Origin: an uncultured Acidobacteriota bacterium
GTDB lineage: Bacteria; Acidobacteriota; Thermoanaerobaculia; Multivoradales; UBA5704
DNA: 64,000 nt
Direction of reading: 5' to 3'
Assembly (NCBI GenBank): GCA_963770895.1
Contig: CAVYRF010000001.1
Coordinates: 1,728,001-1,792,000 of the forward strand
Below, one piece after another: positions 23,949 through 56,994 of the stretch. Both the position numbers and the translations under genes were made by a program. Position 1 is the first letter of the stretch. The number at the start of each line of letters is the position of its first letter. Below the pieces are notes generated by a model, which made no database searches, was not told the origin of the DNA, and saw nothing but the letters and a program-made list of their open reading frames with translations.

Positions 23949-23999
23949 GCCCGCGGACCCGACACCAGGCCCGCGGCGATCGCACTTCGAGGGGACAGC

Positions 24000-33900: not shown

Positions 33901-33998
33901 CAGCACCGTGTACACCTGGTGGCTCATCTTCGCCCCCGCAACAGGCAGCAGGCTGCATCGTGGTGATGCGGTGAGATTCCCAGGATGTTCAGTGCCAA
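33901..33998 (-). pseudogene. Collapsed relic of a carbamoyltransferase paralog (first 62 nt fused to last 36 nt)
   Basis: 55/62 nt match to 44373-44434 and 32/36 nt match to 46113-46148 by manual alignment. Confidence 0.8.
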
Positions 33999-34113
33999 TC
34001 GCCTGCTTTCCGCGGTCCGCAAGGCCGCGGACAGCGCACCATCGCGCACCACCGCCGCGAAACCCATCCGCAGGGCACGATGTGCCGGCTCCCGAGGTGG
34101 AGTGACGGACGGC

Positions 34114-36354
34114 TCAACCGGCCACATCGATGGGCGCTTGCTGTCTCAGGGTGATCAACCCATGGCCGGCGAGTTTCTTGAGGTACCGCACCAGCCTCTC
34201 CACCTGCGGACTCTCGATGCTGCGCAGCAGATCGTCCAGCACGACCGGCTGGGGCGACTCCGTCAGCAACCGGTAGACCAGCGGGTCGAGGCAGATGCAC
34301 TTGGCACCCGCCATGCTCCAATATTTCCGCTGCCGTCCCGGCGCCAGGTTGGGCCGCGCCTCGGCCCACTCCTGAAACGAGCGGAGCGTCGGCTCGCGCG
34401 GCGTCTTGTCGAGCTGGCGCAGGTATGACGCCATGCTCTGGCGTTCTTTGATGATCTTGGCAAGATCGAATGGCGTATCGCGAACCACTCCCCGCGGTAC
34501 CACCACGCAGCCGTGCAAACCGGCATCGGCAATCTCGGTGCCATCGTCGCTGGTTTGTTGCAAATCGCGAAAAAAACGCCGTCCGTAATGATCGAAATAG
34601 ATCATGCTGTGCAGGCTGTCCACCCCTCCCGCCCAGGGCCTGCCCAGCAGGGCAGGAAAGACTCCCCCACGGTCTTCGAAGGAGGCATCCCGGTCCTCGG
34701 TGAGCAGCGTGCGCCCCTCGGCCTCGCCCGCTGCCTGTCCGTCCATCTCGTAGCCGGGAGCCCGTTCGATGTCGGCATCCTGCTTGTCGATCAACCGCAG
34801 TCCGAAACGCGAGGGGTCGCGGGCGACAATGGCCGACCCGGTGAGCTGGAAGGTCCCCATCCCGCCGGCGGACCAGAACCCGTCGTGCTCGCGGACGAAG
34901 CGCAGGGTCTCCTCTTTTTCGGCTGCGGTTTCCGACGGGAAGCCGCTGAATGTCATCAGCTGCACCGCCACTCCGGCGCCGGCAAAGTTCTTCATGGTCT
35001 CGCCCATGAAGGCAACCTTGGTGCCCTTGTCGATCAGATCGAGGACGCGCTGGTTGCCCGACTCCATGCCGAACGACACGCAGACGCAGCCGCTCTTCGC
35101 CAGCTTCTTGCAGCGCTCGGCGGAGAAGACCCTTTCCATGCGCAGCTCGGCGCCCCAGCGGATGTCCAGGCCGGCATCGACGATCGCATCGGTCAGGCGG
35201 TCCAGGTAGGCGGGCGACATCACGTCCACTGCGAAGTACACATAGCGGGTGTGGGTCGCGCCGACGATGTGAGCCAGATCCTCGATCACTTGATCCACGC
35301 CGCGCTCGCGCCACGGCGATGTCGGCTTCGAGGTGTTCAACCCATAGTCGCAGAAGGTGCAGCGATTCCAGTAGCAGCCGCGGGTCGGCGAGTAGTTGAT
35401 GCCGCGCTCCGGTGCCAGGTAGAGCTCCCATGGATAGCGGTAGAGGGGGCGGCCCAGCTGGGGTACGTTTTCATAGTGGATGTGCTGCGGCAGGAAGAGC
35501 TTCCCAGACCGTTTGTCGAAGGTGATCAGGTTCTGCACCCTGGCGCCAGGCACGACGCCGCCCGCATCGGCAATCTCGCACAGCGCAGTCTCGCCTTCGC
35601 CGACCACGATGCCGTCGCAGACGGCGAAAAAATCGGCCATGCGCTGCTTGTCTTTCATGTACTTGTAGAGCTGACTGATGGAGGTGCCGCCGAACAGCAC
35701 CTGCTTGGCAGGCCAGGCCTGCTTCACCCAGCGCGCCAGGTGCAAGGCGTGGAAAATCTGATGATCGTAGGCGACGCTGATGCCGACGCAATCGGCGGAG
35801 GAGAATTGCTCGTCCGCCGCCAGGCGCCCATCGAGGAAGCGGTCGAAGACCTGGCAGATCCTGCCGCCCAGGATCGGATCGAATAGATCGCGCAGATTGT
35901 AGGGTGAAAAGCGGCCGCGATTTGCCAGCCTGAAAGTGGTCAGCTCGCTCGGATAGCCGAGCGCTCCGAGCATCTCCATATAATCAGAGAGATCTGTTTG
36001 GTAGCGCTGGTAGTCTGGAAACGAAAGAAAGCAGCGGCGGTCACGCATCCCGGCGGCGGCGTGTCGAAGATCGTCATACCGCACCCGCCGCTGGCGCCAG
36101 AGTGCCAGATATTCTTCCTGCTCGGCAAAGCTGAGCGCAGCCTGGCGCTCGAAGGCGCTCAGCCGTCGCGCGGCCTCCTCGTAGAAGGCTGCGACGTTCT
36201 GCTCTTCCAGGGCCCAGTTGACCATCTCGATGTTGACGTCGCGGATCACCACGTCCGCAAACCCGGAATGAACCAGATGGCCGGCCAGGTAGGCGGTGGC
36301 GTGGTACGGCAGCGTCGGATCGTCGAGCGGAGGATGGGCCAACAGGATCTTCAT
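34114..36354 (-). CDS. B12-binding-type radical SAM enzyme, copy 1 (putative RiPP maturase)
   Basis: HPPLDDPTLPY N-terminus; Rossmann-like VGIS...FGG...IVVGEGE; RGCYWNRCTFCDY CxxxCxxC; FGMESG. Confidence 0.85.
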   Translation of the reverse strand: MKILLAHPPLDDPTLPYHATAYLAGHLVHSGFADVVIRDVNIEMVNWALEEQNVAAFYEEAARRLSAFERQAALSFAEQEEYLALWRQRRVRYDDLRHAAAGMRDRRCFLSFPDYQRYQTDLSDYMEMLGALGYPSELTTFRLANRGRFSPYNLRDLFDPILGGRICQVFDRFLDGRLAADEQFSSADCVGISVAYDHQIFHALHLARWVKQAWPAKQVLFGGTSISQLYKYMKDKQRMADFFAVCDGIVVGEGETALCEIADAGGVVPGARVQNLITFDKRSGKLFLPQHIHYENVPQLGRPLYRYPWELYLAPERGINYSPTRGCYWNRCTFCDYGLNTSKPTSPWRERGVDQVIEDLAHIVGATHTRYVYFAVDVMSPAYLDRLTDAIVDAGLDIRWGAELRMERVFSAERCKKLAKSGCVCVSFGMESGNQRVLDLIDKGTKVAFMGETMKNFAGAGVAVQLMTFSGFPSETAAEKEETLRFVREHDGFWSAGGMGTFQLTGSAIVARDPSRFGLRLIDKQDADIERAPGYEMDGQAAGEAEGRTLLTEDRDASFEDRGGVFPALLGRPWAGGVDSLHSMIYFDHYGRRFFRDLQQTSDDGTEIADAGLHGCVVVPRGVVRDTPFDLAKIIKERQSMASYLRQLDKTPREPTLRSFQEWAEARPNLAPGRQRKYWSMAGAKCICLDPLVYRLLTESPQPVVLDDLLRSIESPQVERLVRYLKKLAGHGLITLRQQAPIDVAG

Positions 36355-36396: not shown

Positions 36397-36975
36397 CTAC
36401 TCCTGCCTGGCAAGCCTGGCGGCCTGCGCAGCCTGGTGCTCGGCGACGAGCGACTTGAGCTTCGGCCACATCTCCTTGTAGGGGCAAAGGGAGCTGTTGA
36501 GGAACCGGCCGGCGGCCGCCGACCAGCCCCTGCCCAGCGGCAGCATGCAGGCGCCGAACTCGACCAGCCGGGCTACATTGGCGCGCACCGCCGGATGCGC
36601 CCACATCTCCGGCGCCATCGCCGGGCCGAAGGCGACCGGCCCGGTGAAGCTCAGATAACAGTGGGCGAGCAGCGTCTCCGCCGAACCTCCGGCGCAGCGC
36701 GCAAGGGTGGTGGCGCTGGCCGGTGCGACCAGGAAGAGATCGATGTCCTTGACCAGTTCGGGCGGGGAACGCATCGGACGCGGGTCGGACCACGGATCGA
36801 CATGCACGTCGACGCGCACCATGGCCTCGAGCGCCTGCGGATTGACAAAGCGAGCGGCGGCTGACGTCATGACCACCCGCAGCTCCTCGACCTCGGGCTC
36901 GGCCCGGAGGTTGATCAGGTAGGAGTGGATGTTAAGGACGCCGATCGAGCCGCTCACGCCGACCAGGATTCTCAT
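36397..36975 (-). CDS. EpiD/LanD-like HFCD flavoprotein
   Basis: ILVGVSGSIG, APASATT, PAMAPEMW; stand-alone 192 aa with no CoaB domain; adjacent to a Cys-terminal peptide. Confidence 0.82.
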   Translation of the reverse strand: MRILVGVSGSIGVLNIHSYLINLRAEPEVEELRVVMTSAAARFVNPQALEAMVRVDVHVDPWSDPRPMRSPPELVKDIDLFLVAPASATTLARCAGGSAETLLAHCYLSFTGPVAFGPAMAPEMWAHPAVRANVARLVEFGACMLPLGRGWSAAAGRFLNSSLCPYKEMWPKLKSLVAEHQAAQAARLARQE

Positions 36976-36997
36976 CGCGCAGGCTCCGCGCGCTGCC

Positions 36998-37044
36998 GCC
37001 GGTCTGCCGGAGAGGGCGTGCGACCGCCGTCTTGGCAGACCGGC
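36998..37044 (-). promoter_or_regulatory. Stem-loop directly downstream of precursor 1
   Basis: GCCGGTCTGCC (36998-37008) pairs with GGCAGACCGGC (37034-37044). Confidence 0.55.
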
Positions 37045-37053
37045 CCTGACAGC

Positions 37054-37197
37054 TCAACAGCCGCCGTTGTTGTTGATATTGGTTTCTTCGTCTGAGGATG
37101 CCGCGCCGCCCGAGACATCTTCCAGCACGGTTTCGTCGATCTCACCGCTGCCAGCGTCCTCGAGTTCCTTTGCAACGTCTTCCGGTTTCTGGTCCAT
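37054..37197 (-). CDS. RiPP precursor peptide 1 (47 aa)
   Basis: MDQKPEDVAKELEDAGSGEIDETVLEDVSGG|AASSDEETNINNNGGC; AAGGAGG RBS; double-glycine leader. Confidence 0.88.
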   Translation of the reverse strand: MDQKPEDVAKELEDAGSGEIDETVLEDVSGGAASSDEETNINNNGGC

Positions 37198-37280
37198 GGA
37201 TTGCCTCCTTTGCCGGATCGCGACCGGCATTTGTCTGGTAAGGCACGCGGCACATGCCGCGCCCGTCGAAACCCTTACAT

Positions 37281-38756
37281 CTACTCGACGCCAGCCGCGG
37301 CGGTCTCGCCGTGCAACGGCACCGATGTCGATTCGCTTCGCCCCTCGACGGCGTCGATCAGTTCGAACTTGGCATTCCGGCGCAGCGGCGAGCACGGCGA
37401 ACTGCCGGTGTCCATGCGGATCTGCGGGCAGTAGACACCCTGGCAAACCGGCAGGATGGTGCACTTCCGGCACTTGGGGTCCTGCTCGAAGGCCGGTTCG
37501 GTCCACAACGCAAGCTTGTCCTGATCGAGCTCCATGCGACCGTCGGGGCGGAGGTAGCCCACCACGTTGCGGTCGTGCTTGTCGAGGTCGACCGTGCACT
37601 TCATCACCTTGCCGCTCGCCCCGATCAGGAAGTTGTAAGGCCGCGCCGCGTAGCAGACGTGCGAGCCCAGGCCCACTTCGGTGATCCCCGAGGCAAGGCT
37701 GAGGCCGCGCCGCTGGGCCTCCTTTTTCATCTCGCGTTCCATGCTCCAGGCGTCCTCGACGCCGCAGACCGCAAGGCTGGCGTCGTTCGGCCCACCCCAC
37801 TTGCCGACGGCGTAGAAGCGCATCTTGAAGCGCGGATCGCCGCCGAGCTCGCGCTCGATGATGTCGAGAAAGCCGCGGTAGCTCATCACGTTGTTGCGGT
37901 CGAAGTTGAAGCGCAACATGACCGTGAAGTCCTCGCTGCGGCGTGACAGCGCCTTGAGGTTGGCGAGGATGGTGCCGAAGGTTTCCTGGCCGTCGCGGGT
38001 GGGTCGAGTGCGGTTGTGGTCCTCCGGCACTCCGTCGATGGTGATCTGGAAAAACGCCACTTCCCAGGCCAGGAGCCGCTCGGCCACCTCCGGTGTGAGC
38101 AGGAAGGCGTTGGTGGTCATGTTGCTGGAGAAGCGGACCGAGTGTTCGCGGGCGATCGCCTGGAAGAACGGCGCGAGGTCCTCGATGGCCTCGAAGCCGT
38201 AGAGCGGCTCGCCGCCGAACCACGCCACCGACAGAGAGCTGAGCGAGCGGATGCGCGATTCGGTCAGCTTCTTGATGGCGGTGCGCACCGCCGGCTGCAT
38301 GGTGCCGCGGGCGAAGTCCTCGTAGCAGTAGGTGCAGCGGAAGTTGCAGTCTTCGGAGGCGAGGAGGATGAGTTGCAGGATGTCGGTGCGGTACTGGGCC
38401 TGGCCGAATTCGAGCTGGATGCGCCGGTATTCGTCAGTCCCCTCCTGGACCAGGAAGCCACGCTCGTAAAGGAGCTTGACGGCGCCCCGCCGTGCCGCCG
38501 TAAAACCCTTCTGCGTCAACAGGGTCTCGATCTTACGCCGGACTGCGACGGGGAAGACGCTCATCGTGCCGCGCAAGCTGTTCCACAGCACCAGACGGCC
38601 GTCGGTGGTGGTGGCGCGGGTGTTGTAGCGCGAGGGCACCCACCGCGTGGCGCCGGCCTCGGCCATCGCACTCCCTCCGGCGGGCACCGAGGGGATCTCC
38701 GTGTCGAGAGGAGATCGCACCAGAATGGGAAGCTTATCGCCGAGGCCGAGACTCAT
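37281..38756 (-). CDS. Radical SAM/SPASM peptide maturase
   Basis: RRE-like N-term (SRYN...LVLWNSLRG...GFLV); CNFRCTYCY; WFGGEPL; SPASM cysteines CYAA..KC..KCRKCTILPVCQGVYCP..C. Confidence 0.9.
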   Translation of the reverse strand: MSLGLGDKLPILVRSPLDTEIPSVPAGGSAMAEAGATRWVPSRYNTRATTTDGRLVLWNSLRGTMSVFPVAVRRKIETLLTQKGFTAARRGAVKLLYERGFLVQEGTDEYRRIQLEFGQAQYRTDILQLILLASEDCNFRCTYCYEDFARGTMQPAVRTAIKKLTESRIRSLSSLSVAWFGGEPLYGFEAIEDLAPFFQAIAREHSVRFSSNMTTNAFLLTPEVAERLLAWEVAFFQITIDGVPEDHNRTRPTRDGQETFGTILANLKALSRRSEDFTVMLRFNFDRNNVMSYRGFLDIIERELGGDPRFKMRFYAVGKWGGPNDASLAVCGVEDAWSMEREMKKEAQRRGLSLASGITEVGLGSHVCYAARPYNFLIGASGKVMKCTVDLDKHDRNVVGYLRPDGRMELDQDKLALWTEPAFEQDPKCRKCTILPVCQGVYCPQIRMDTGSSPCSPLRRNAKFELIDAVEGRSESTSVPLHGETAAAGVE

Positions 38757-40122: not shown

Positions 40123-41364
40123 ATGATTCCCTACTTTCTGAACCTCGGCCAGAGCATCGAACGGGCCTGGCTGGCGCGGGGCTACGACGAAGAGGTGTTC
40201 CCTACGCTGGCGGTGGATCTCCTGGCGGAGAATCCACCGCAGCAGCATGTCGGGACGGCGGATGTCGTCGATTGGGTCTTCGGTACTTCCCACCCCTTTT
40301 TGCAGCCCGCTGGACGCGCCTTTTTCGGCGAGCCGCCGGTGCTGGTCTACCAGGGGCCGCGGTTCTATATCGAAGTTCTGTTCTGGATGGCGGCGACCAC
40401 CTCCATCCACGAGCATGGCTTCAGCGGCGCTTTCGCGGTCCTGGCCGGATCGAGCGTGCACAGCCACTGGCGTTTCGCGCGCGAGCGGACGATCAATTCC
40501 CGCCTGCTGTGCGGCCGGCTGGAGCGCGTGTCGACCGAGATCCTGCGGCCCGGCGCCATCCGCCAGATCGACTCCGGCAGCCGGCTGATCCACCAGCTTT
40601 TCCACCTGGAGCTGCCGTCGGTCACGATCGTCGTGCGTACCTATTCCGATCGCAAACATCAGCCGCAGTATCAGTACCTGCCGCCGGGACTGGCGATCGA
40701 CCCCGAGGACCACGACCCGCTGCGGGCGCGGCGCCTGCTGCTGCTCGACAACATGGCCCGCGGCCGGCTTCCGGGCCTGCCGGAGTACGCCGGCAGGCTC
40801 ATCGCCGTCGCCGATCCGGAGACGCTGTGGCAGATGTTCTCGACCTTGACCCGCCGCAAGGTGGACCGCGGCCTGCTCGACGGCCTGTTCCGGCTTGCCC
40901 GCGACCGCCACGGCGACGTGGTGGACCTGTTCCGCCGGGTGTGCGAAGACGAGCGGCGCACCCGCGTGGTGACCGCGCTGCGGGAAAAAGTCGTCGATCC
41001 GCAGGCGCGGTTCCTGCTGGCGCTGCTGATGCTGATGCCCGATCGCGACGCGATCGTCGAAACCGTGCAGCAACAGTTTCCCAACCTGCAGCCGGTGCCG
41101 GCGATCGAAACCTGGGTCGCATCCATGGCCGGCAAGGAAACCATCGGCTTTCACCTCACCGACCTCAACCGCCTCATCTTCCGCGGCCTGGTGGAAGGTG
41201 TCGACGCGGATGGCCTCTTGCAGCGGTTGCGGACCCAGCTCCAGGACGGCGCCGCCACCGATCCCGAGCACGCGCTCGACCACGCCAAGCGCATGGCGCG
41301 GCTGGACCTGTTCTATCCGTTGTTTTCACGTTCGCCGCTGCGCGAAGCGGCGCGGATGGCCTGA
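40123..41364 (+). CDS. Hypothetical protein with a cupin (thiol-dioxygenase-like 3-His) domain
   Basis: TTSIHEHGFSGAFAVLAG and distal LIHQLFH; helical C-terminal half. Confidence 0.6.
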   Translation: MIPYFLNLGQSIERAWLARGYDEEVFPTLAVDLLAENPPQQHVGTADVVDWVFGTSHPFLQPAGRAFFGEPPVLVYQGPRFYIEVLFWMAATTSIHEHGFSGAFAVLAGSSVHSHWRFARERTINSRLLCGRLERVSTEILRPGAIRQIDSGSRLIHQLFHLELPSVTIVVRTYSDRKHQPQYQYLPPGLAIDPEDHDPLRARRLLLLDNMARGRLPGLPEYAGRLIAVADPETLWQMFSTLTRRKVDRGLLDGLFRLARDRHGDVVDLFRRVCEDERRTRVVTALREKVVDPQARFLLALLMLMPDRDAIVETVQQQFPNLQPVPAIETWVASMAGKETIGFHLTDLNRLIFRGLVEGVDADGLLQRLRTQLQDGAATDPEHALDHAKRMARLDLFYPLFSRSPLREAARMA

Positions 41365-41470: not shown

Positions 41471-41584
41471 TCAGTTGGGATTGTTGATGATGTTGTTGTT
41501 GTCGTCCGGCTTCGCATCGCCGCCCGACACGTCTTCCAGAACCTCGTCATCCAGCTCTGCACTCTTGGACTTCTCGTCGGCCAT
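41471..41584 (-). CDS. RiPP precursor peptide 2 (37 aa)
   Basis: Hand translation MADEKSKSAELDDEVLEDVSGG|DAKPDDNNNIINNPN*; AAAGGAG RBS; same LEDVSGG leader as peptide 1; below the ORF-track cutoff. Confidence 0.88.
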   Translation of the reverse strand: MADEKSKSAELDDEVLEDVSGGDAKPDDNNNIINNPN

Positions 41585-41676: not shown

Positions 41677-44001
41677 TCATCTGGGCGCCGCCACCATCGG
41701 CGCGGGATCGGAACCCGGTTCCGAGTGTCGCGGCGTCCACCCCTGCCGGGGCCCGCGGGATCTCCCGGCAGCCGTCGGCATTGCCGCCTTCTGCGACGCC
41801 GTCAATACGATCAGGCCTTGCGCGGCGAGCCGCCGGAAGTAGCGCAGGAACCTGGCGGCCTCCGGCTGGTCGACACGGCCGAGCAGCTCCCGCAGCGTGA
41901 CCGTCTGCGTCTCGGTCGCCGCCAGCAGCTGGTAGACGAACGGATCGATCCGCACACACTTGGCGCCGGCCATCGCCCAGTAGCGGCGTTGCGGGCCGGC
42001 TGCCAGCGCGGTGCGGCCGGCAGCCCATTCGCGATAGGCCTGCTGCGTCGGTTCGCGCGGGACCTTGGCCAGCGCCGCCAGATAGGACGCCATCTGTTTG
42101 CGTTCGCGCAGGATCGTGGCCAGGTCGTACGGTGAGTCCCGCAGCACCCCCGGCACCCCGACGGCGCACGCCAGCAGCTGCTCGTCCGACATCGCATCGT
42201 CGGTGTCGAGGTTGTCGCGGAAAAAGCGCCGGCCGTAGAAATCGTAATAAATCATGCTGTGCAGGCTGTCGGTGCCGCCGGCCCAAGGTCTTCCCAGCAT
42301 CAGGGGAAAGATGTTGCCGCGGGCGTCGAACGAAGCGTCGCGGTCTTCGGTGAGCATCGCCTTGCTCTCTTCGCCCCGCGCGTCGTCTTCCAGCTCGTAG
42401 GCCGGCGCCCGCAGCACGTCGACGTCCTGCTTTTCGATCAGGCGCACGCCGAAGCGGCCGGGGTCCTTGGCGACGATCGCCGTGCCGGTCAGCAGGAAGG
42501 TGCCGATGCCGCCGGTGGACCAGTAGTCGTCGTGGTCGCGGACGAAGCGATGGGTCTCCGCCTTTTCTGCCGCGGTTTCCGATGGGAAGTCGGAGAACGC
42601 CATGAGCTGGACCGCGACGCCGGCCTCCGCGAAGTTCTTCATCGTTTCGCCCATGAAGGCGACCTTGGTGCCTTTGTCGATCAGGTCCAGGATGCGCTGG
42701 CTGCCGGACTCCATGCCGAACGAGACGCAGACGCAGCCGCTGGCCGCCAGCTTGGCGCAGCGGTCTTGCGTGAAAACCTTTTCCAAGCGCATTTCCGCCG
42801 CCCAGCGGATGTCCAGATCGGCGGCGGCGATGGCGTCGGACAGCCTGTCCAGGTAGGCGGGCGCCATGACGTCGACGGCGAAATAGACATACCGGGCACC
42901 GGTTTCGCCAATGGCGCTGCGCAGGTCGTCGACCGCCTGGTCGACCCGGCGCTCGCGCCATGGGGAGGTCGGCTTGGAGGTGTTGAGGCCGTAGTCGCAA
43001 AACGTGCAGCGATTCCAATAGCAGCCGCGCGTGGGCGAATAGTTGATGCCGCGCGCCGGCGCCAGGTACAGGTCCCACGGGTAGCGGAAAAGCGGGCGGC
43101 CCAGGGCCGGCACGTTCTCGTAATGGATGCAGTCGGGCAGGTACAGCTTGTCCGCCGTGCGGTCGTACGAGATGAGGTTGTGGACCTTGGCGCCGGGCTT
43201 GACCTGCCCGGCGTCGGCGATCTGGCACAGCGCCGTCTCGCCTTCGCCGACGACGATGCCATCGCACATTTCGAAAAAGCGCCGCATCTGCTGCTTGTCG
43301 CGGATGTACTTGTAAAACTGGCTGATCGAGGTGCCGCCCAGCAGGATCTGCTTGTCCGGCCAGCGCCGCTTCGCCCACCGTGCCATGTGCAGGGCGTGAA
43401 ACATCTGGTGGTCGTAGACGATGCTGAGCCCCAGGCAGTCCGCGGCGGCGAGCTGGGCGTCGTCCGCCAGCCGCTCGTCGAGGAAGCGATCGAAGACCTG
43501 GCAGATCGTTGCGGTCAGGCCGGGTTCGAAAAGATCGCGGAAGTTGTAGGGCGAAAAGCGGCCGCGGCTGACCTGCCTGAAGTTGGTCACGTCGCCGGGG
43601 TAGCTGAGGCTGCCGAGCATGCTTTCGTAACGCAGCAAGCTCATCCGAAAGGTCTTGTACTCATCGAAAGCAAGGAAGGCGTCGCGATCGCGCAATCCGG
43701 CGAGCGATCGTTGCAGCTGTTCGTAGGAGACGCGATGCTGGCGCCAGAGGCCGAGGTACTCTTCCTGCTCCAGGAAGGACAGCGACCCTTTGCGTTCCAA
43801 GGCCTTCAACCGCCGGTCGGCCTCTTCGTAGAACGACGAGAAGACCGCTTCCTCGAACGTCCAATTCACCATCTCGATGTTGACGTCGCGGATGGCGACG
43901 TCGTCGAAGCCGCAATGCACCAGGTGGCCGGCGAGGTAGGCGGTCGAATGGTACGGCAACGTGGGATCGTCGAGCGGCGGGTGCGCGAGCACGATCTTCA
44001 T
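41677..44001 (-). CDS. B12-binding-type radical SAM enzyme, copy 2
   Basis: MKIVLAHPPLDDPTLPY; shares the block RGINYSPTRGCYWNRCTFCDYGLNTSKPTSPWRER with copy 1; AAGGAGG RBS. Confidence 0.85.
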   Translation of the reverse strand: MKIVLAHPPLDDPTLPYHSTAYLAGHLVHCGFDDVAIRDVNIEMVNWTFEEAVFSSFYEEADRRLKALERKGSLSFLEQEEYLGLWRQHRVSYEQLQRSLAGLRDRDAFLAFDEYKTFRMSLLRYESMLGSLSYPGDVTNFRQVSRGRFSPYNFRDLFEPGLTATICQVFDRFLDERLADDAQLAAADCLGLSIVYDHQMFHALHMARWAKRRWPDKQILLGGTSISQFYKYIRDKQQMRRFFEMCDGIVVGEGETALCQIADAGQVKPGAKVHNLISYDRTADKLYLPDCIHYENVPALGRPLFRYPWDLYLAPARGINYSPTRGCYWNRCTFCDYGLNTSKPTSPWRERRVDQAVDDLRSAIGETGARYVYFAVDVMAPAYLDRLSDAIAAADLDIRWAAEMRLEKVFTQDRCAKLAASGCVCVSFGMESGSQRILDLIDKGTKVAFMGETMKNFAEAGVAVQLMAFSDFPSETAAEKAETHRFVRDHDDYWSTGGIGTFLLTGTAIVAKDPGRFGVRLIEKQDVDVLRAPAYELEDDARGEESKAMLTEDRDASFDARGNIFPLMLGRPWAGGTDSLHSMIYYDFYGRRFFRDNLDTDDAMSDEQLLACAVGVPGVLRDSPYDLATILRERKQMASYLAALAKVPREPTQQAYREWAAGRTALAAGPQRRYWAMAGAKCVRIDPFVYQLLAATETQTVTLRELLGRVDQPEAARFLRYFRRLAAQGLIVLTASQKAAMPTAAGRSRGPRQGWTPRHSEPGSDPAPMVAAPR

Positions 44002-44372
44002 TTGCGACCTCCTTGGCGTTGCGTTCCGCCTGCCGTCGGAGCGAAGGATCTGCCGGGGCGTCTCCTTCGTCTCATGGTGCTTCGTATATGCCAACATTAC
44101 CCTATAACAGTGAGTAGTTGATACGCAATACAACGTACAAATGAAATCATGTTTAATACCTGACAGGGGTGGTCAGTTTATGGGACAAGCGCCCCAATTA
44201 CAGGCCGCGCCAGACTCTTTTCGCCGGGTTTTTGTGCTGCTCAATCTGTGCTAAGTGCCTTGTAGAAATCGATGCTTACGTAGTACTCTCTGTTTTGCGC
44301 GGTTTTGTGAGGCCGCGGGGCGCTGTCCTGGGCCTGGCAGGCCTCTCCTCGTGGAGCGCGGGACAAGGGCGA

Positions 44373-46151
44373 ATGGCACTGAACATCCTGGGGATCTCAG
44401 CGCACTACCACGATGCATCCTGTTGCCTGTTGCGCGACGGGCAGCTCATCTGCGCGGCGGAGGAAGAGCGCTTCTCCCGCGTCAAGCACGACAGCCGCCT
44501 GCCCTGGCGCTCTTTTCGCTTCTGCCTCGAACAGGGGGGCATCACCCTGCCCGAGGTCGACTGCGTCGCCTACTATGAAAATCCTGAAAAGAAGCTGTCC
44601 CGGCAGATCTGGATGGCCCTGCATCCGGATGCCTCCGACTCCATCCGCCGCAGCGTTCTGAGCCGGCTGCCGGATCGCGTCGACCGGGTCGAACGGCAGA
44701 TCCGCCACCAGCTCGGCTACACCGGCCGGTTGGAGCTTTTCGATCATCACCAGTCTCACGCCGCCAGCAGCTTTTTTTACTCCGGGTTCGAAGAGGCCGC
44801 GGTGTTGACCGTGGACGGCGTGGGCGAATGGGCGACGACCGCCTTCGGCGCCGCCGCCGGCGCCGCCATCGATCTGTTCGAAGAGGTCCGCTTCCCCAAC
44901 TCGCTGGGCATGCTGTACAGCGCCATGACCGCGTATCTGGGCTTTGACGTCAACGACGGCGAATACAAAGTCATGGGGCTCGCCCCCTACGGAGAGCCGC
45001 GCTACGTCGACCAGGTGCGCGCCCTGGTGACGCGGCAAGGGGACGGCCAGTACCGGCTCAACCTCCAGTATTTCGATTTCCTGCGGCGCAACCGGATGTA
45101 TTCGGACCAACTGGTGGATCTATTCGGGGCACCGCCGCGGTTGCCCGAGGCGGAGCTGCTGGCATTTCACCAGGACGTCGCGCGCAGCGTCCAGTGGGTG
45201 CTCGAAGAGATCCTGCTCGAAAAAGTGCACTACCTCCACGACCGGGTTCCCAGCCGCAACCTCTGCATGGCGGGCGGCGTCGCGCTCAACTGCGTGGCCA
45301 ACAGCCGCATCCTCCGCGACGGGCCCTTCGCCCAGCTGTTCGTACAGCCCGCCGCGAGCGATGCCGGCGGCTGCCTGGGCGCCGCCGCCCTGGCGCACGT
45401 GCGCCTGACCGGCGAGCGGCCGGCCCAGGGCCGCCTGGCCCACATGTACTGGGGCCCCGCCACGCCGGTCGAAGACGTCGCCGGCATGCTCGCCGGAACC
45501 GCGCTGCCGGCCCTCGACTTCCGCTGCCGGCCCGACGACCTGCTGCAGGCGACCGTCGAGCGCCTGGCGGCCGGCAAGGTCGTGGGCTGGTTCCAGGGCC
45601 GCATGGAGTTCGGACCGCGCGCGCTGGGGGCCAGGTCGATCCTGGCGGACCCGCGCGACGAAGGCATGCGCGACCGGATCAACGCCCTGGTCAAGATGCG
45701 CGAAAGCTTCCGTCCCTTCGCCCCGGCGGTTCTCGAAAGCCGGGCGCGGGATCACTTCGCCATCGACCATCCCTCTCCCTTCATGCTGGAAACCTGCCCG
45801 GTCAGCTCGCCGATCCATCTGCCGGCGGTCACCCACGTCGACCGCTCGGCCCGCCTGCAGACCGTCGACCCGGCGTCGAGCCCGCGCTTCGCCGCCCTCC
45901 TGGAGCGCTTTGCCGATCGCACCGGCTGCCCGATCCTGCTCAACACCTCCTTCAACGTCCGCGGCGAACCCATCGTCCGCACGCCGGAGGAGGCGCTGCT
46001 CTGTTTTGCACGCTCGGGCATCGATACCCTGGTCCTCGAAGACTTCGTCATCGACCGCCAATCGGTGCCGCCGGCCTGGAGCCAGCTGCTGCCGAAGCAG
46101 GAGCGACCCGGCGGGCCGAGGGTGAGCCACCAGGTGTACACGCTGCTGTAG
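44373..46151 (+). CDS. CmcH/NodU family carbamoyltransferase
   Basis: ILGISAHYHD, EEERFSRVKH, HHQSHAAS, DGVGEW, GEYKVMGLAPYG, AGGVALN, EFGPRALG, LLNTSFN. Confidence 0.93.
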   Translation: MALNILGISAHYHDASCCLLRDGQLICAAEEERFSRVKHDSRLPWRSFRFCLEQGGITLPEVDCVAYYENPEKKLSRQIWMALHPDASDSIRRSVLSRLPDRVDRVERQIRHQLGYTGRLELFDHHQSHAASSFFYSGFEEAAVLTVDGVGEWATTAFGAAAGAAIDLFEEVRFPNSLGMLYSAMTAYLGFDVNDGEYKVMGLAPYGEPRYVDQVRALVTRQGDGQYRLNLQYFDFLRRNRMYSDQLVDLFGAPPRLPEAELLAFHQDVARSVQWVLEEILLEKVHYLHDRVPSRNLCMAGGVALNCVANSRILRDGPFAQLFVQPAASDAGGCLGAAALAHVRLTGERPAQGRLAHMYWGPATPVEDVAGMLAGTALPALDFRCRPDDLLQATVERLAAGKVVGWFQGRMEFGPRALGARSILADPRDEGMRDRINALVKMRESFRPFAPAVLESRARDHFAIDHPSPFMLETCPVSSPIHLPAVTHVDRSARLQTVDPASSPRFAALLERFADRTGCPILLNTSFNVRGEPIVRTPEEALLCFARSGIDTLVLEDFVIDRQSVPPAWSQLLPKQERPGGPRVSHQVYTLL

Positions 46152-50642: not shown

Positions 50643-50715
50643 GGTCACCTCGTCGTCCTGGTTCACCAGCAGATCGACAGCTAAGCAGTGTAGCAGGCTC
50701 GCGTCGTAGCGGGCG

Positions 50716-51903
50716 TCATGCCGGCGGCACGCCGGCCGCCTGCTGCGGCCGCCAGCCGCAGGTGCGATCGTACGCGGCCGCGAGACGCACCGGAGCGCTG
50801 GCGTCCGCCAGGTCTTCCAGGCGCAGCGTGGCGAGCGCGGCGATGACCAGGGCGCGGTCGCGCGGCGTCGCCAGCGGCGGCCGGCGGTCGTCGTCGAAGC
50901 GTCCCAGGTTGGCTGCCGCGGCATGGACCAGCGCCCGCAGCACGGCAAAGGCGCCGTCCGACAGCGGCGGCGTGCCGCGATACACCTGCAGGCGGCCGGC
51001 CGGCCGGTAGCGCGGGAAGTCCTCGAGGCCCAGGAAGCGCAGCAGCCAGTCGGGACGGAAGCGGCCCAGGGCCGAGCCGATGCCGACAAAGTCGGCGATC
51101 AGCTCGTCGAGCAGGTTGTTGCGCATGACGCCGAACAGCCGGCGGGTGAAGTAGTGCGCTCCTTCGTGCTCGCGGCGGATGGCGAGCGACAGCTGCCGCC
51201 ATCGGCCGCCGTCCACGCCCAGCTGCTCGGCGGGCACGGCGCTGTACGGGCCGTCGCTGAGCAGGATGAGACGGTCCTGGTAGAGGTCCTTTTGCGGCCG
51301 CAGCCGCTCCATCTCCGCGGCCCAGGAGGCGGTCGCCCGCAGCGCGGCGGGCGTCGCCTCCCATGCCCGGCGCAGCTCGTGGAGCCGCGCCCAGTTGACG
51401 TAGCCGGAGATCATCTGGGCGCCCATCGCCTCGGGCACCGGCCACGGCTCGTTGCGCCGGCTGAGCGCCTGGACCAGCAGCACGAAGTCCTGGCGGCAGC
51501 CGGCGACGAGCAGGGGGATCCTGCCGGCGGGGCTCTGGTGCAGGACGATCTGCAACCGCTCCGGGGCGCTGAGCGTCAGGCCCTGGCCGCCCGGCGGCGG
51601 GTCGGGCGCCACGCCCTGCCGCGTCGCCGCCAGGTAGGGAGCGGTCTGGCTGATGCCCGCGGCGACGGGGAAGCGCAGCTGCGGCAGCTTGGCGCGCAGC
51701 ACCGCGAAGCTGCCGCGGTCGGCGGCCTCCAGGACACAGCTCTCCCAGAAGGCGATGAACGGTTCGTCGGCCAGGGGCAGCCGCGGCGCCGCGAAGATCG
51801 CCTCGCTGGCGAACAGGTTTTCGTTGTAGGCCAGGAGCTCCGCCACCTCGCCGGCGGCGGCGCCGAAGGTCGTCAGGGTGCCAGCTTGCCGAGCTTCAGC
51901 CAT
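50716..51903 (-). CDS. Hypothetical protein with an HExxH motif (DUF7005-like)
   Basis: LILLSDGPYSAV, IRREHEGAHYFT..DELIAD. Confidence 0.65.
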   Translation of the reverse strand: MAEARQAGTLTTFGAAAGEVAELLAYNENLFASEAIFAAPRLPLADEPFIAFWESCVLEAADRGSFAVLRAKLPQLRFPVAAGISQTAPYLAATRQGVAPDPPPGGQGLTLSAPERLQIVLHQSPAGRIPLLVAGCRQDFVLLVQALSRRNEPWPVPEAMGAQMISGYVNWARLHELRRAWEATPAALRATASWAAEMERLRPQKDLYQDRLILLSDGPYSAVPAEQLGVDGGRWRQLSLAIRREHEGAHYFTRRLFGVMRNNLLDELIADFVGIGSALGRFRPDWLLRFLGLEDFPRYRPAGRLQVYRGTPPLSDGAFAVLRALVHAAAANLGRFDDDRRPPLATPRDRALVIAALATLRLEDLADASAPVRLAAAYDRTCGWRPQQAAGVPPA

Positions 51904-51932
51904 CGCTATAGCATATGGTGGAGAGAGCGAGC

Positions 51933-53537: not shown

Positions 53538-54775
53538 TCTTCCGCAAGGTGGCGCTGGAGCGCCTGTCGTCGCCCGAGCAGCTGGACCAGCTCCTGGAAG
53601 TCACCACGCCCATCGGCTGGCTGGCGCTCGCGGCGCTCGGCGCGCTGGTGGCGGCGGGGATGGCCTGGGCGCTGTTCGGCTCCATCCCGACGCTGGCCGC
53701 CGGCGAAGGCATCCTGCTGCGCCGCAGCGGCGTCATGGACTTGGTGGCGACCGCCGGCGGCCAGGTCGACGAAGTGCTGGTCCACGTCGGCGACGTGATC
53801 GAAAAGGGCCAGCGCGTGGCCTCCATCCGCCAGCAGGGGCTGCTGCGCCAGATGGAAGACCTGCGCGGCAAGCGCGCGGTCCTCGACCAGGAGTACCAGG
53901 CGCTGCTGCGGTTCACCGCCGGGCAGCAGCAGCTCAAGCAGAGCGAGCTCGAGCAGCAGCGCGCCAACCTGCAGCGCACCGTGGCCGCGCTGGGCAGAAA
54001 CGTGCAGCTGCTGGTCGAGCGCGTCACCGCCGAGCAGAAGCTGGTCGACGACGGATTGATCACCAAGCAGACCCTGCTGGCCTCCGAGCAGAGCTTGAAC
54101 ACCGGCCGCGACCAGCTGGCCGCCGCCCGCGTCGACCTCGCCGACCTCGAGCTCAAGCGGCGGGAATCGGAGGAGGCGCAAAAGGAGCAGCTGCTGGCGC
54201 GCAGCGCCCTGATCCGCGACCTGGACTCGCAGATCCACGAGCTGCAGGCCAGACTGCGCGAAGACGTCGACGTGGTTTCGCCCTACCGCGGCCGGGTGCT
54301 CGAACTGATGGTCAATCGCGGCGACCTGGTCAACCCGGGAGCGCCGATGCTCAACCTGGAGATGATCGGCGACGATCTGCTGGCGGTCCTCTTCGTGCCG
54401 GCGACGATGGGCAAGCGGGTGCAGCAGGGGATGCTGGTGCGGATCTCGCCGTCGACCGTCAACAGCGAAGAATACGGCTACATGCTCGGGCGGGTGAACT
54501 GGGTCGCCGACTACCCGTCCACGGCGCGCGGCATGACCCGCCTGCTGGCCAACGAAGCGCTGGTCAACCGCCTGATGGCGGCCGGGCCGCCGGTGCAGGT
54601 CAACGTGGCGCTGATCGCCGACGCCGCGACGCCGACCGGCTACCGGTGGTCGTCGATGCGCGGCCCCAGCCTCAAGATCAGCAGCGGCACGCTGGCCTCC
54701 GGCAGCATCGTGGTGCGCCAGGACCATCCCCTGCACCTGCTGGTGCCGACGGTGCGCGAGCGGCTCGGTGTCTGA
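53534..54775 (+). CDS. NHLM bacteriocin system secretion protein (HlyD-like)
   Basis: MIFRKVALERLSSPEQLDQLL signature; coiled coil; TPTGYRWSS; ATGA overlap with the TolC gene. Confidence 0.9.
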   Translation: MIFRKVALERLSSPEQLDQLLEVTTPIGWLALAALGALVAAGMAWALFGSIPTLAAGEGILLRRSGVMDLVATAGGQVDEVLVHVGDVIEKGQRVASIRQQGLLRQMEDLRGKRAVLDQEYQALLRFTAGQQQLKQSELEQQRANLQRTVAALGRNVQLLVERVTAEQKLVDDGLITKQTLLASEQSLNTGRDQLAAARVDLADLELKRRESEEAQKEQLLARSALIRDLDSQIHELQARLREDVDVVSPYRGRVLELMVNRGDLVNPGAPMLNLEMIGDDLLAVLFVPATMGKRVQQGMLVRISPSTVNSEEYGYMLGRVNWVADYPSTARGMTRLLANEALVNRLMAAGPPVQVNVALIADAATPTGYRWSSMRGPSLKISSGTLASGSIVVRQDHPLHLLVPTVRERLGV

Positions 54776-56981
54776 ACCTGCCGCCCCTGCCGATCCCGCC
54801 GCCGCCGCTGCCGCACCGGGCGAGCGGCGGCGGCCGCGGCGGGTGCGCACGCCGACGGTGCTGCAGATGGAGGCGGTGGAGTGCGGCGCCGCGGCGCTCG
54901 CCATCGTCCTGGCCACCTTCAACCGCTGGGTGCCGCTCGAGCAGCTGCGCGTCGCCTGCGGCGTGTCGCGCGACGGCAGCAAGGCCAGCAACGTGGTCAA
55001 GGCGGCGCGCACCTTCGGCCTGGAAGCCAAGGGCTACAAGAAGGAGCCGGCGGCGCTGCGCGACCTCGTGCCGCCGATGATCCTGCACTGGAACTTCAAC
55101 CATTTCGTGGTGCTCGAAGGGTGGAAGCGCGGCCGCGTCTACCTCAACGACCCGGCCTCGGGGCCGCGTACCGTCAGCGAAGAAGAGCTCGACCAGGCGT
55201 TCACCGGCGTCGTGCTGGTCTTCCGGCCGGGTCCCGGCTTCCAGCCCGGCGGCGGCGCCCCCAGCCTGCTCGCCGCGCTGCGCCAGCGGCTGGCCGGAAT
55301 GCGCGCGGCGCTGGCCTTCGCGCTGCTCACCGGCCTGGCGCTGGTGGTCCCCGGCCTGGCGGTGCCGGCGTACTCCAAGGTGTTCGTCGACGAAGTGCTG
55401 CTCGCCGGGCACCACGACTGGATGCTGCCGCTGATGGGGCTGATGGTGGTGACGGCGCTCGCCAGCGCCGCCCTGATCTGGCTGCAGCAGGCCTACTTGC
55501 TGCGCATGGAAACCAAGATGGCGCTGGCCGGTTCCAGCCGTTTCCTGTGGCACGTCCTGCGGCTGCCGCTGGAATTTTTCAACCAGCGCTTCGCCGGCGA
55601 CATCAGCTCGCGGGTGGCGATCAACGACCAGGTGGCGGGCCTGCTGTCGCGCGACCTCGCCTCGGGCGCCCTGGGGGCCCTGGTGGTGGTCTTCTACGCC
55701 ATCCTGATGCTGCGCTACGACGTGCCGCTGACCGTCCTGGGGCTGGTGATCGTGTCGCTCAACGTCGCCGCCCTGCGCTACGTGTCGCGCCAGCGGGTGG
55801 ACGGCAACCGCCGCCTGGCGCAGGACCGCGGCAAGCTCCTGTCGACCGCCATCGGCGGCTTGCAGATGATCGAGACGCTCAAGGCCATGGGCTCGGAGTC
55901 GGACCTGTTCGCGCGCTGGGCGGGCCACCAGGCCAAGGTGGTCAACGCGCGCCAGGGTCTGGAACGCTACACCCAGGTGCTCGGCGCCGTGCCGCCCGCG
56001 CTCGCGGCGCTCAACACCGCGGCGATCCTGGGCGTCGGCGGCCTGCGCGTCGCCAACGGCGGCCTCAGCCTGGGCGGCCTGGTGGCCTTCCAGGTGCTGA
56101 TGGCGGGGTTGACGGCGCCGGTCGAACGGCTGGTGAACCTCGGCGGCCAGCTGCAGACCGCGGAAGGAGACATGAGGCGCCTCGACGACGTGCTGCGCTA
56201 CCCGGAGGTGGCGGGCGGCGACGCGCCATCCGAGCCGCTGCCCGCCGGCCAGCCGGTGCGCCTGGCCGGACACCTCGAGCTGCGCGACGTCTCGTTCGGC
56301 TACAGCCGCCTGGATCCGCCGCTCATCGAAGGCTTCCACCTGGACCTCAAGCCGGGCGCGCGGGTGGCGCTGGTGGGCGGCTCGGGCAGCGGCAAATCGA
56401 CCATCGCCAAGCTGGTGCTGGGACTCTACGAGCCCTGGGAGGGCCAGATCCTGTTCGACGGCCGGCCGCGCCGCCAGGTGCCGCGGCGGGTGCTCGCCAA
56501 CTCGCTGGCGTACGTCGACCAGTCGATCTTCCTGTTCGAGGGCACGGTGCGCGACAACCTGACGCTGTGGGACTCGACCGTGCCGCTGCCGGAGATGATC
56601 GGCGCGGCCAAGGACGCCTGCATCCACGACGTCATCGCGGCCAAGGTGGGCGGCTACAGCAGCACGGTGCAGGAAGACGGCGCCAATTTCAGCGGCGGCC
56701 AGCGGCAGCGCCTGGAGATCGCCCGCGCGCTGGTCGGCCGGCCGCGCCTGATCGTGCTCGACGAAGCCACCAGCGCGCTCGACCCGGTGACCGAAGCAGA
56801 GATCGATCGGCACCTCAGGCGGCGTGGCGTCACCTGCCTGATCGTCGCCCACCGGTTGAGCACCATCCGCGATGCCGACGAGATCATCGTGCTCGACAAG
56901 GGCAAGGTGGCGCAGCGCGGCACCCACGACCAGCTCAAGGACGCGGCCGGCGCCTACGCCCGCCTGATCGGCGCCGAATGA
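54768..56981 (+). CDS. NHLM-type ABC transporter, C39 peptidase/permease/ATPase
   Basis: TPTVLQMEAVECGAA (catalytic Cys), HWNFNHFVV, NDPA; GGSGSGKST, FSGGQRQR, LDEATS. Confidence 0.93.
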   Translation: MSEPAAPADPAAAAAAPGERRRPRRVRTPTVLQMEAVECGAAALAIVLATFNRWVPLEQLRVACGVSRDGSKASNVVKAARTFGLEAKGYKKEPAALRDLVPPMILHWNFNHFVVLEGWKRGRVYLNDPASGPRTVSEEELDQAFTGVVLVFRPGPGFQPGGGAPSLLAALRQRLAGMRAALAFALLTGLALVVPGLAVPAYSKVFVDEVLLAGHHDWMLPLMGLMVVTALASAALIWLQQAYLLRMETKMALAGSSRFLWHVLRLPLEFFNQRFAGDISSRVAINDQVAGLLSRDLASGALGALVVVFYAILMLRYDVPLTVLGLVIVSLNVAALRYVSRQRVDGNRRLAQDRGKLLSTAIGGLQMIETLKAMGSESDLFARWAGHQAKVVNARQGLERYTQVLGAVPPALAALNTAAILGVGGLRVANGGLSLGGLVAFQVLMAGLTAPVERLVNLGGQLQTAEGDMRRLDDVLRYPEVAGGDAPSEPLPAGQPVRLAGHLELRDVSFGYSRLDPPLIEGFHLDLKPGARVALVGGSGSGKSTIAKLVLGLYEPWEGQILFDGRPRRQVPRRVLANSLAYVDQSIFLFEGTVRDNLTLWDSTVPLPEMIGAAKDACIHDVIAAKVGGYSSTVQEDGANFSGGQRQRLEIARALVGRPRLIVLDEATSALDPVTEAEIDRHLRRRGVTCLIVAHRLSTIRDADEIIVLDKGKVAQRGTHDQLKDAAGAYARLIGAE

Positions 56982-56994
56982 GCCGCGGCCAGCC

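What the first reader, a model, noticed from the sequence alone, without database searches (positions are those of the whole stretch)
36397..38756. Cys-terminal NGGC peptide between an rSAM/SPASM and a LanD-like enzyme, with no dehydratase
Seen: order SPASM, precursor (...NNNGGC-stop), flavoprotein; the Cys-less precursor 2 has neither enzyme next to it. Known: LanD enzymes decarboxylate C-terminal Cys to an enethiol that normally adds to Dha/Dhb, and streptococcal NxxcB links Cys sulfur to the Asn beta-carbon in an NxxC motif. Inference: a radical-made thioether or aminovinyl-thioether ring onto Asn, a dehydratase-independent route to an AviCys-like macrocycle.
Basis: partly seen in the sequence, partly recalled or inferred. 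Interest (0 to 1): 0.85.

Follow-up and report, generated by a model that had tools for sequence, protein, structure and literature searches.

The report
Radical-SAM plus flavoprotein peptide-ring gene cluster
This is a small gene cluster for a ribosomal peptide whose last four residues (Asn-Gly-Gly-Cys) are probably tied into a sulfur-bridged ring by a radical enzyme and a flavoprotein; that chemistry was published in 2023, so this soil-bacterium version is a new variant and not a new principle.

Summary
On the minus strand lie a radical SAM/SPASM maturase (37281-38756), a 47-aa precursor ending NNNGGC (37054-37197) and an HFCD flavoprotein (36397-36975). No dehydratase was found in the 36 window ORFs scanned.

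In 30 related loci, all 11 with an adjacent HFCD gene have a precursor ending in Cys, and none of the 19 without one does. Asn sits three residues before 57 of 85 core cysteines.

The chemistry is not new. SycC (rSAM/SPASM) and SycD (LanD-like) make S-[2-aminovinyl]-3-carbamoylcysteine (AviCamCys) on a precursor with Asn19 and C-terminal Cys22 (Cheng et al. 2023, seen only through a review).

Four points differ here:
- The host is an acidobacterial lineage, and the precursor has a long double-glycine leader.
- A third enzyme, a 746-aa B12-type radical SAM protein, lies in the same operon. Its paralogue sits beside the Cys-less precursor 2.
- A C39-peptidase ABC exporter lies 16 kb away.
- The flavoprotein clade has Pro where EpiD has its essential His67, so decarboxylation is inferred and not assured.

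Verdict: new variant of a known kind; interest moderate.

The parts
37281..38756 (-). Radical SAM/SPASM peptide maturase, 491 aa; predicted to link Cys47 sulfur to Asn44
   Evidence: PF04055 5.3e-14. The best NCBIfam matches are thioether/ranthipeptide-type maturases (TIGR04463 5.5e-56, Clo7bot, geopeptide, CefB, PapB), all below their cut-offs. The best solved relative is CteB, 5wgg/5why, 3.3e-14. All 11 Cys are conserved in 10 of 10 aligned family members.
37054..37197 (-). Precursor 1, 47 aa: double-glycine leader, predicted core AASSDEETNINNNGGC with a C-terminal NxxC
   Evidence: Shine-Dalgarno AAGGAGG upstream. The leader is conserved in homologous loci. NxxC occurs in 31 of 35 family cores.
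36397..36975 (-). HFCD-family flavoprotein, 192 aa; predicted to act on the C-terminal Cys; lacks the canonical His
   Evidence: PF02441 8.3e-21. PDB sequence matches: CoaBC 2.1e-18, EpiD 9.5e-11, MrsD 2.9e-9, CypD 1.8e-5. S70-P71-P72 occupies the position of EpiD His67. The genome has a separate CoaBC-like gene.
34114..36354 (-). B12-type radical SAM protein 'B12a', 746 aa, last gene of the operon; function inferred as C-methylation or another radical step on the Asn/Ile-rich core
   Evidence: PF04055 1.3e-11; PF02310 1.4e-6, below gathering score. Weak matches to PhpK-type and RiPP C-methyltransferase families, below their cut-offs. The cluster motif is CYWNRCTFC, i.e. Cx4Cx2C. No PDB sequence match.
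41677..44001 (-). Paralogue 'B12b' (774 aa from MKIVLAHPP; the ORF is open to 44133), directly upstream of precursor 2
   Evidence: 68% protein identity to B12a. 72.7% DNA identity over 2222 nt, 34153-36354 against 41809-44001.
41471..41584 (-). Precursor 2, 37 aa, same leader type; predicted core DAKPDDNNNIINNPN, no Cys
   Evidence: These are the only two leader-bearing peptides found in the window.
40123..41364 (+). Conserved unknown protein, 413 aa, that recurs beside SPASM/precursor pairs in other loci
   Evidence: tblastn finds it at 57-66% identity in L013, L016, L018, L019, L020, L029 and L039. No Pfam or NCBIfam match. AF2 model pLDDT 68, with only weak Foldseek matches to thiol/cysteine dioxygenase cupins, E about 0.014.
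54768..56981 (+). C39-peptidase ABC exporter; candidate for cleavage after the GG of both leaders, and for export
   Evidence: PF03412 1.1e-33, PF00664 and PF00005. The link to this cluster is inferred from the GG leaders only.

Best explanation
The locus is a ribosomal-peptide (RiPP) operon, SPASM-precursor-flavoprotein-B12 rSAM. It belongs to an uncharacterised, mostly acidobacterial and myxobacterial family whose cores are built from NxxC motifs.

Inferred steps:
1. The flavoprotein acts on the free C-terminal Cys47. Most likely this is oxidative decarboxylation to an enethiol.
2. The SPASM enzyme abstracts the beta-hydrogen of Asn44 and joins that carbon to the sulfur. This closes a four-residue ring carrying S-[2-aminovinyl]-3-carbamoylcysteine, as published for SycD/SycC.
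3. The B12-type radical SAM enzyme adds a further modification to the Asn/Ile-rich stretch that precursors 1 and 2 share.
4. A C39-peptidase ABC exporter removes the leader after Gly-Gly.

Shown here: gene content, motifs and the co-variation across loci. Inferred: every chemical step.
For: (1) Association. I recognised a precursor beside the SPASM gene in 30 loci: the window, L102, L057/L058 and 26 of the 80 genome loci. All 11 loci with an adjacent HFCD gene have a precursor ending in Cys. None of the 19 without one does.

(2) Tree. On a quick SPASM tree, the 8 acidobacterial HFCD-associated rows on the tree sit in one 13-row clade (support 96) mixed with 5 HFCD-less rows. The label needs 4 changes, of which 2 are forced by well-supported branches.

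(3) NxxC motif. It is present in 31 of 35 cores. Asn is at -3 of 57 of 85 Cys, while Asn makes up 13% of core residues. The C-terminal Cys has Asn at -3 in 8 of 11 HFCD loci, Gln in 2 and Met in 1.

(4) SPASM features. CxxxCxxC plus 8 auxiliary Cys are conserved in 10 of 10 aligned members. The nearest solved relative is the thioether maturase CteB. The nearest NCBIfam families are thioether/ranthipeptide maturases.

(5) Second lineage. Paenibacillus loci L057/L058 carry the same triad plus an MFS transporter and a short precursor ending TINIFC. This matches the gene set described for syc.

(6) Precedent. SycD makes the enethiol and SycC couples it to Asn19 C-beta of SycA, whose last residue is Cys22 (PMC10989515, section 14 read in full; PMC11162475, passage and reference 54). 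NxxcB links Cys to Asn C-beta and also tolerates Gln, Ala and Asp as acceptor (PMC9389541 passages).

(7) No dehydratase in the window. The housekeeping CoaBC-like gene lies elsewhere in the genome.
Against: The flavoprotein and all its close relatives have Ser-Pro-Pro (Pro-Pro-Pro in L102; relatives are L003, L006-L011, L102 and the closest database clusters) where EpiD has His67. A review states that H67N abolishes EpiD activity (PMC8549060 passages).

The Asn of the PxMN motif (EpiD Asn117) is Ala here. An active mycobacterial CoaBC also lacks that Asn.

Of the 150 best representatives, 140 keep a His at this site.

The SPASM enzymes closest to the window's (63-64% identity: L002, L004) work without any HFCD gene. 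A plain saturated thioether is therefore within this enzyme clade's repertoire.

I could not compare sequences with SycC or SycD; the paper is not held. No syc-like locus turned up in 401 Streptomyces genomes.

The role of the B12-type enzyme is a guess. Its B12-domain match is below Pfam's threshold, and its cluster motif is Cx4Cx2C.

No expression or product data were examined.
Confidence: 0.6

Rival explanations
1. The SPASM enzyme makes an ordinary saturated Cys47-Asn44 beta-thioether, as NxxcB does. The His-less flavoprotein does not decarboxylate a free thiol. It has a different role tied to the C-terminal Cys, either acting after cyclisation or serving as a binding partner.
For: The canonical His is missing in the whole clade. 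Close SPASM relatives work on internal NxxC motifs without any HFCD gene. His67 is described as essential in EpiD.
Against: The 11 of 11 against 0 of 19 link with a C-terminal Cys shows that the protein needs a free C-terminal Cys, which is the LanD substrate feature. The flavin-site motifs GSGSI and PASATT are kept, and 85 columns are invariant among the 8 clade members aligned. The Paenibacillus relatives of the same triad keep His and Asn.
Confidence: 0.25
2. The SPASM enzyme does something other than Cys-Asn C-beta linkage. Examples are an alpha-carbon (sactionine) or gamma-carbon thioether, epimerisation, or a bond that does not involve Cys47.
For: All NCBIfam matches are below their family cut-offs, so no equivalog assignment exists. 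Related solved and named enzymes make alpha, beta or gamma links.
Against: Asn is strongly enriched exactly at -3 of Cys, 57 of 85. Every core has Cys, apart from precursor 2, which has no SPASM gene beside it.
Confidence: 0.1
3. An AviCys ring forms in the classical way, by addition of the enethiol to a dehydrated Ser or Thr made by a dehydratase encoded elsewhere in the genome.
For: The core has Ser33, Ser34 and Thr39. Two Lant_dehydr_N matches exist on contig C2.
Against: No dehydratase lies in the window. The Ser and Thr residues lie 8 to 14 residues from Cys47, whereas Avi(Me)Cys rings are described as holding 4-6 residues. This reading leaves the SPASM gene without a role.
Confidence: 0.03

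Closest known systems
syc cluster, SycA/SycC/SycD (AviCamCys); Cheng, Huang, Duan, Liu, Angew Chem 2023, e202308733. Known to me only through review PMC10989515 section 14 and reference 54 of PMC11162475
   Same: The precursor ends in Asn-x-x-Cys. A radical SAM/SPASM maturase and an HFCD (LanD-like) flavoprotein are encoded together, with no dehydratase. The predicted ring is the same, with the C-terminal Cys sulfur on Asn C-beta.
   Different: The window has a 47-aa precursor with a double-glycine leader, against 22 aa for SycA. It has a C39-ABC exporter candidate and no adjacent MFS transporter. It has an extra B12-type radical SAM gene and a second, Cys-less precursor. Its flavoprotein lacks the His67 equivalent. 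Sequence relatedness to SycC/SycD was not tested.
NxxcB / NxxcA (streptococcal NxxC RaS-RiPP)
   Same: The NxxC motif, with Asn as the acceptor three residues before Cys. The chemistry is a radical SAM/SPASM thioether. Gln at the acceptor position in L006/L007 fits NxxcB's reported tolerance.
   Different: The phylum and regulation differ. NxxcB makes saturated thioethers without a flavoprotein. Sequence relatedness was not tested.
LanD enzymes EpiD, MrsD, CypD
   Same: The HFCD fold family (E 9.5e-11, 2.9e-9 and 1.8e-5). A C-terminal Cys is required.
   Different: There is no Dha/Dhb partner. His67 is replaced by Pro and Asn117 by Ala. The top sequence matches are CoaBC-type.
CteB (thermocellin) and PapB (freyrasin) ranthipeptide maturases
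   Same: SPASM architecture with three predicted clusters. CteB is the best solved relative, 3.3e-14. The PapB family matches at 2e-27, below its cut-off.
   Different: Their acceptor residues are Thr C-gamma and Asp C-beta, and their core motifs differ.

Membership tests
AviCamCys (syc-type) RiPP system | Precursor ends in Asn-x-x-Cys with a free C-terminal Cys | tested here: met
   N44-G45-G46-C47-stop. SycA has Asn19 and Cys22 of 22 aa.
AviCamCys (syc-type) RiPP system | Radical SAM enzyme with CxxxCxxC and a SPASM auxiliary-cluster domain, of the thioether-forming group | tested here: met
   C137/C141/C144 plus 8 Cys, conserved in 10 of 10 aligned members. CteB is the best PDB match.
AviCamCys (syc-type) RiPP system | HFCD (LanD-like) flavoprotein encoded beside them | tested here: met
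   PF02441 8.3e-21. The gene lies 78 nt downstream of the precursor.
AviCamCys (syc-type) RiPP system | Flavoprotein has the catalytic residues of Cys decarboxylases (EpiD His67, Asn117) | tested here: not met
   Pro71/Pro72 and Ala121 occupy those positions. The same holds in the whole clade.
AviCamCys (syc-type) RiPP system | Sequence homology to SycC and SycD themselves | not testable with these tools
   The primary paper is not held. No syc-like locus was found in 401 Streptomyces genomes. Which genus 'S. ureilyticus' denotes is not stated in the text I saw.
AviCamCys (syc-type) RiPP system | Product carries S-[2-aminovinyl]-3-carbamoylcysteine | not testable with these tools
   This needs expression, MS and NMR.
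Lanthipeptide-type Avi(Me)Cys pathway | A dehydratase (LanB, LanM, LanKC or LanL) supplies the Dha/Dhb acceptor | tested here: not met
   None in the 36 window ORFs scanned. Lant_dehydr_N matches occur only on contig C2.
NxxC radical SAM RiPPs (NxxcB type) | Recurrent NxxC motif in the core | tested here: met
   31 of 35 family cores have it, and 57 of 85 Cys have Asn at -3. The window core has one.
NxxC radical SAM RiPPs (NxxcB type) | Maturase homologous to NxxcB | not tested
   No NxxcB sequence was on hand.
Class B (cobalamin) radical SAM methyltransferases, for B12a/B12b | B12-binding domain plus radical SAM core | tested here: inconclusive
   PF02310 scores 28.6 bits against a gathering score of 32.1, with PF04055 at 1.3e-11. 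All NCBIfam matches are far below their cut-offs. The motif is Cx4Cx2C.

The most novel reading that the evidence does not exclude
The His-less flavoprotein clade does not work like LanD. The residue said to acidify the thiol proton is gone. One possibility is that it acts after the SPASM enzyme, on a C-terminal Cys whose sulfur is already alkylated, converting a saturated thioether to the aminovinyl form by a different flavin mechanism. Another is that it performs a different C-terminal reaction altogether. Combined with B12-type radical SAM tailoring of the Asn/Ile stretch, this would give a scaffold and an order of steps not yet described.
Probability: 0.12. Interest if true: 0.7.

Novelty: new variant of a known kind. 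Interest (0 to 1): 0.42.

Why it matters
If the prediction holds, the radical SAM plus flavoprotein route to aminovinyl-thioether rings is not a single curiosity. It would recur in soil Acidobacteriota within a larger family of NxxC peptides.

In that family the same maturase clade serves both plain and C-terminally tailored cores. Relatives ending NxNCxC would carry two overlapping rings.

The flavoprotein clade without the canonical His is a natural test of what that residue does in cysteine decarboxylases.

The B12-type enzyme shared by a Cys-containing and a Cys-less precursor offers a handle on an uncharacterised radical SAM family. That family has hundreds of metagenomic members and no informative name.

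Tried and rejected
- The flavoprotein is rare in genomes: 3 of 401 genomes of the class at E <= 1e-30. The B12-type enzyme was found in 6 of 401 genomes of the phylum.
- To tie the window to SycC, I searched 401 genomes of the genus of L071. Twelve had a SPASM match at E <= 1e-40. None had an HFCD gene or an NxxC-ending peptide within the 1.5-kb flanks.
- A sample of 401 genomes of the class of L057 held no further copy of its flavoprotein.
- A homologue search with the Paenibacillus SPASM listed no named SycC.
- For loci L023, L026-L028, L030-L037 and L049 (about 50% identity) I found no precursor next to the gene, so they are left out of the counts.
- The careful tree did not finish in 288 s. 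The quick tree is what I cite.
- The conserved 413-aa protein stayed unexplained. It had no Pfam match even at E 1, only 'hypothetical' Atlas clusters, and weak cupin matches on a model whose residues 54-100 have pLDDT below 50. The pdb_via_wide library was not available.
- It shows no similarity to the JmjC protein of L099.
- The promoter scan gave one site (38811-38783, minus strand), which is what shuffles give. It carries no weight.
- I rejected a housekeeping CoaC role for the flavoprotein, because the genome has a separate CoaBC-like frame.
- Supplements were closed and not asked for. The primary paper's supplement would hold the Syc sequences.
Full report
**What is there.**
The window is GC-rich, 64-79%. 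It lies in an 8.16-Mb genome of three contigs. On the minus strand, four genes follow each other with gaps of 83, 78 and 42 nt:

- A 491-aa radical SAM/SPASM protein, 37281-38756.
- A 47-aa peptide, 37054-37197.
- A 192-aa flavoprotein, 36397-36975.
- A 746-aa B12-type radical SAM protein, 34114-36354.

The peptide has AAGGAGG six bases before its ATG and ends ...VLEDVSGGAASSDEETNINNNGGC.

Further upstream on the same strand lie a 68%-identical paralogue of the B12-type gene (41677-44001) and, right after it, a 37-aa peptide. That peptide has the same leader and the Cys-less core DAKPDDNNNIINNPN. These are the only two leader-bearing peptides in the window.

A C39-peptidase ABC exporter lies at 54768-56981. 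It fits the Gly-Gly leaders, but this link is an inference. No lanthipeptide dehydratase is among the 36 window ORFs I scanned. The genome's two Lant_dehydr_N matches are on another contig. The fourth operon gene was overlooked.

**Families.**
The SPASM protein has CNFRCTYC and eight further Cys. All are conserved in 10 of 10 aligned relatives, including a Paenibacillus one. Its best NCBIfam matches are thioether or ranthipeptide-type maturases (TIGR04463, Clo7bot, geopeptide, CefB, PapB), all far below their cut-offs. Its best solved relative is CteB, 3.3e-14.

The flavoprotein is PF02441 (8.3e-21). It matches CoaBC, EpiD, MrsD and CypD sequences in the PDB. A separate CoaBC-like frame elsewhere in the genome covers the housekeeping role.

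**Relatives.**
A scan of one genome per species found 249 relatives of the SPASM protein. The best 80 were kept:

| Group | Identity to the window's SPASM |
|---|---|
| Thermoanaerobaculia and other Acidobacteriota MAGs | 53-64% |
| Polyangium, Sorangium, Myxococcus | about 51-54% |
| Rhodanobacteraceae, Sphingomonadales | about 50% |
| Actinomycetes, Bacillota | 33-40% |

The big protein database holds 1600 scored relatives with no informative name.

In 26 of the 80 loci, one or two peptides with the leader ...ELDDxxLE[DE][AV][SA]GG follow the SPASM gene directly. Their cores are built from NxxC:

- 31 of 35 cores have the motif.
- Of 85 core Cys, 57 have Asn at -3.
- Asn is only 13% of core residues.

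An HFCD gene lies within the fetched flanks in 9 of the 80 genome loci: L003, L006-L011, L057 and L058. It is also present in the metagenome contig L102, which has the window's gene order and a flavoprotein 76% identical.

With the window that makes 11 loci, and in all 11 the precursor ends in Cys:

| Locus | Precursor ending |
|---|---|
| window | NNNGGC |
| L102 | TNGNCLC |
| L008 | NNNCLC |
| L009 | NNNCIC |
| L010 | NNNCVC |
| L011 | NGNCVC |
| L007 | NGSQCYC |
| L006 | NQLQCYC |
| L003 | NGFMCNC |
| L057, L058 | TINIFC |

In the 19 loci with a recognised precursor and no HFCD gene, none of 24 peptides ends in Cys. Three of those 19 sit on short contigs (L013, L018, L020), so a distant HFCD gene cannot be excluded there.

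Relatedness inflates such counts. On a quick tree, the eight acidobacterial HFCD rows share a 13-row clade (support 96) with five HFCD-less rows. The label needs four changes, two of them forced by well-supported branches. The careful tree did not finish. The link between the flavoprotein and a C-terminal Cys therefore rests on a few independent events, not eleven. Even so, it is clean.

**Precedent.**
It is already in print.

A review describes the syc cluster of 'S. ureilyticus YC419' (PMC10989515; I read section 14 in full). SycA is 22 aa. SycD, a LanD-like protein, forms the C-terminal enethiol. [quoted passage not shown] The product is AviCamCys. Without SycC an aldehyde shunt product forms.

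The primary paper is Cheng, Huang, Duan and Liu, Angew Chem 2023, e202308733. I saw it only as reference 54 and one sentence in PMC11162475. It is not held.

NxxcB's Cys-to-Asn beta-thioether, and its tolerance of Gln, Ala and Asp as acceptor, come from passages of PMC9389541.

The Paenibacillus loci carry the full syc-like set: a short precursor, SPASM, HFCD and an MFS transporter.

**What differs here.**

1. *The flavoprotein.* HMMER alignments to five solved HFCD proteins put Ser70-Pro71-Pro72 where they have the catalytic His, and Ala121 where EpiD has Asn117.
   - The motif is Ser-Pro-Pro in all eight aligned acidobacterial proteins and Pro-Pro-Pro in L102. The Paenibacillus proteins keep His and Asn.
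   - In a profile search of 1.84 billion representatives, only 13 clusters reach 1e-30. Of the 150 best, 140 have a His at this site. The 10 without it include the four closest.
   - A review states that EpiD H67N loses activity but still binds substrate, and that His67 is thought to acidify the thiol proton (PMC8549060 passages).
   - The clade is conserved, with 85 invariant columns among eight members. It keeps the GSGSI and PASATT motifs, so it is under selection. Whether it decarboxylates by the usual mechanism is open.
2. *The B12-type radical SAM proteins.* They are found beside both precursors here.
   - At 64% identity, one lies beside three peptides with the same leader in a same-family genome. 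One of those peptides carries a similar Asn/Ile stretch (...DNNINSN...). A LanC-like gene and a JmjC gene sit there too (L099).
   - No other SPASM locus has such a gene within 10 kb.
   - The family has hundreds of unnamed or misnamed metagenomic members and no solved relative.
   - Methylation is my guess from weak family matches.
3. *The core.* The window core has a single NxxC, whereas most HFCD-linked relatives end NxNCxC. Those would give two overlapping rings if both Cys react.

**Verdict.**
Its novelty claim does not hold.

I put 0.6 on the AviCamCys-type ring. I put 0.25 on a saturated thioether with a flavoprotein that does something else. The remaining weight goes to other radical SAM chemistry or a remote dehydratase.

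The locus is a new variant of a known kind. The most interesting open points are the His-less flavoprotein and the B12-type enzyme.

Noticed in passing
window 40123-41364 (+); also L013, L016, L018, L019, L020, L029, L039: A conserved 413-aa protein with no Pfam or NCBIfam family recurs beside SPASM/precursor pairs. It has invariant His96, His98, His113, His115, His157 and His161. A medium-quality model gives only weak Foldseek matches to cysteine/thiol dioxygenase cupins (E about 0.014).
   Followed up: partly
window 44169-46151 and 46182-48212 (+); L008-L010, L014, L029, L052: A carbamoyltransferase (PF02543/PF16861) and a 676-aa GDSL-like protein follow the SPASM/precursor genes in six other loci at 81-83% and 60-67% identity. 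This may be a functional link or only shared synteny.
   Followed up: no
window 33937-34024 (-): A remnant of a carbamoyltransferase start (LALNILGISPHHHDAACCLL...) lies just after the B12a stop. It is 83% identical over 88 nt to 44347-44434 in inverted orientation. This suggests a rearrangement or duplication that built the B12a/B12b pair.
   Followed up: partly
L099 (G365:C1:2723000-2742900), about 4474-12766: A same-family genome has a different cluster. It holds an 858-aa unknown protein, three precursors with the same leader (cores with ...ANACC...), a JmjC-domain protein, a LanC-like protein and a B12-type radical SAM protein 64% identical to B12a.
   Followed up: partly
window 34114-36354 and 41677-44001 (-): Both B12-type radical SAM proteins carry CYWNRCTFC, a Cx4Cx2C spacing where CxxxCxxC is usual.
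   Followed up: no
window 48225-59967: An export-gene group: a MacB-like permease, DUF7005, an outer-membrane efflux protein, a C39-peptidase ABC transporter and a second ABC transporter.
   Followed up: no
window 22668-26060 (+): A ferritin-like protein followed by a LodA-type L-lysine epsilon-oxidase homologue (PF17990 9.3e-64). A CHAT/TPR protein lies at 17156-19897.
   Followed up: no
L015 17295-17429, L017 18238-18324, L019 8446-8628, L039 6933-7088: Other small peptides with a ...ELSD[DE][DE]L[DE]QAAGG leader and Pro/Gly-rich tails lie within 10 kb of four SPASM loci. They may be a second peptide family.
   Followed up: no
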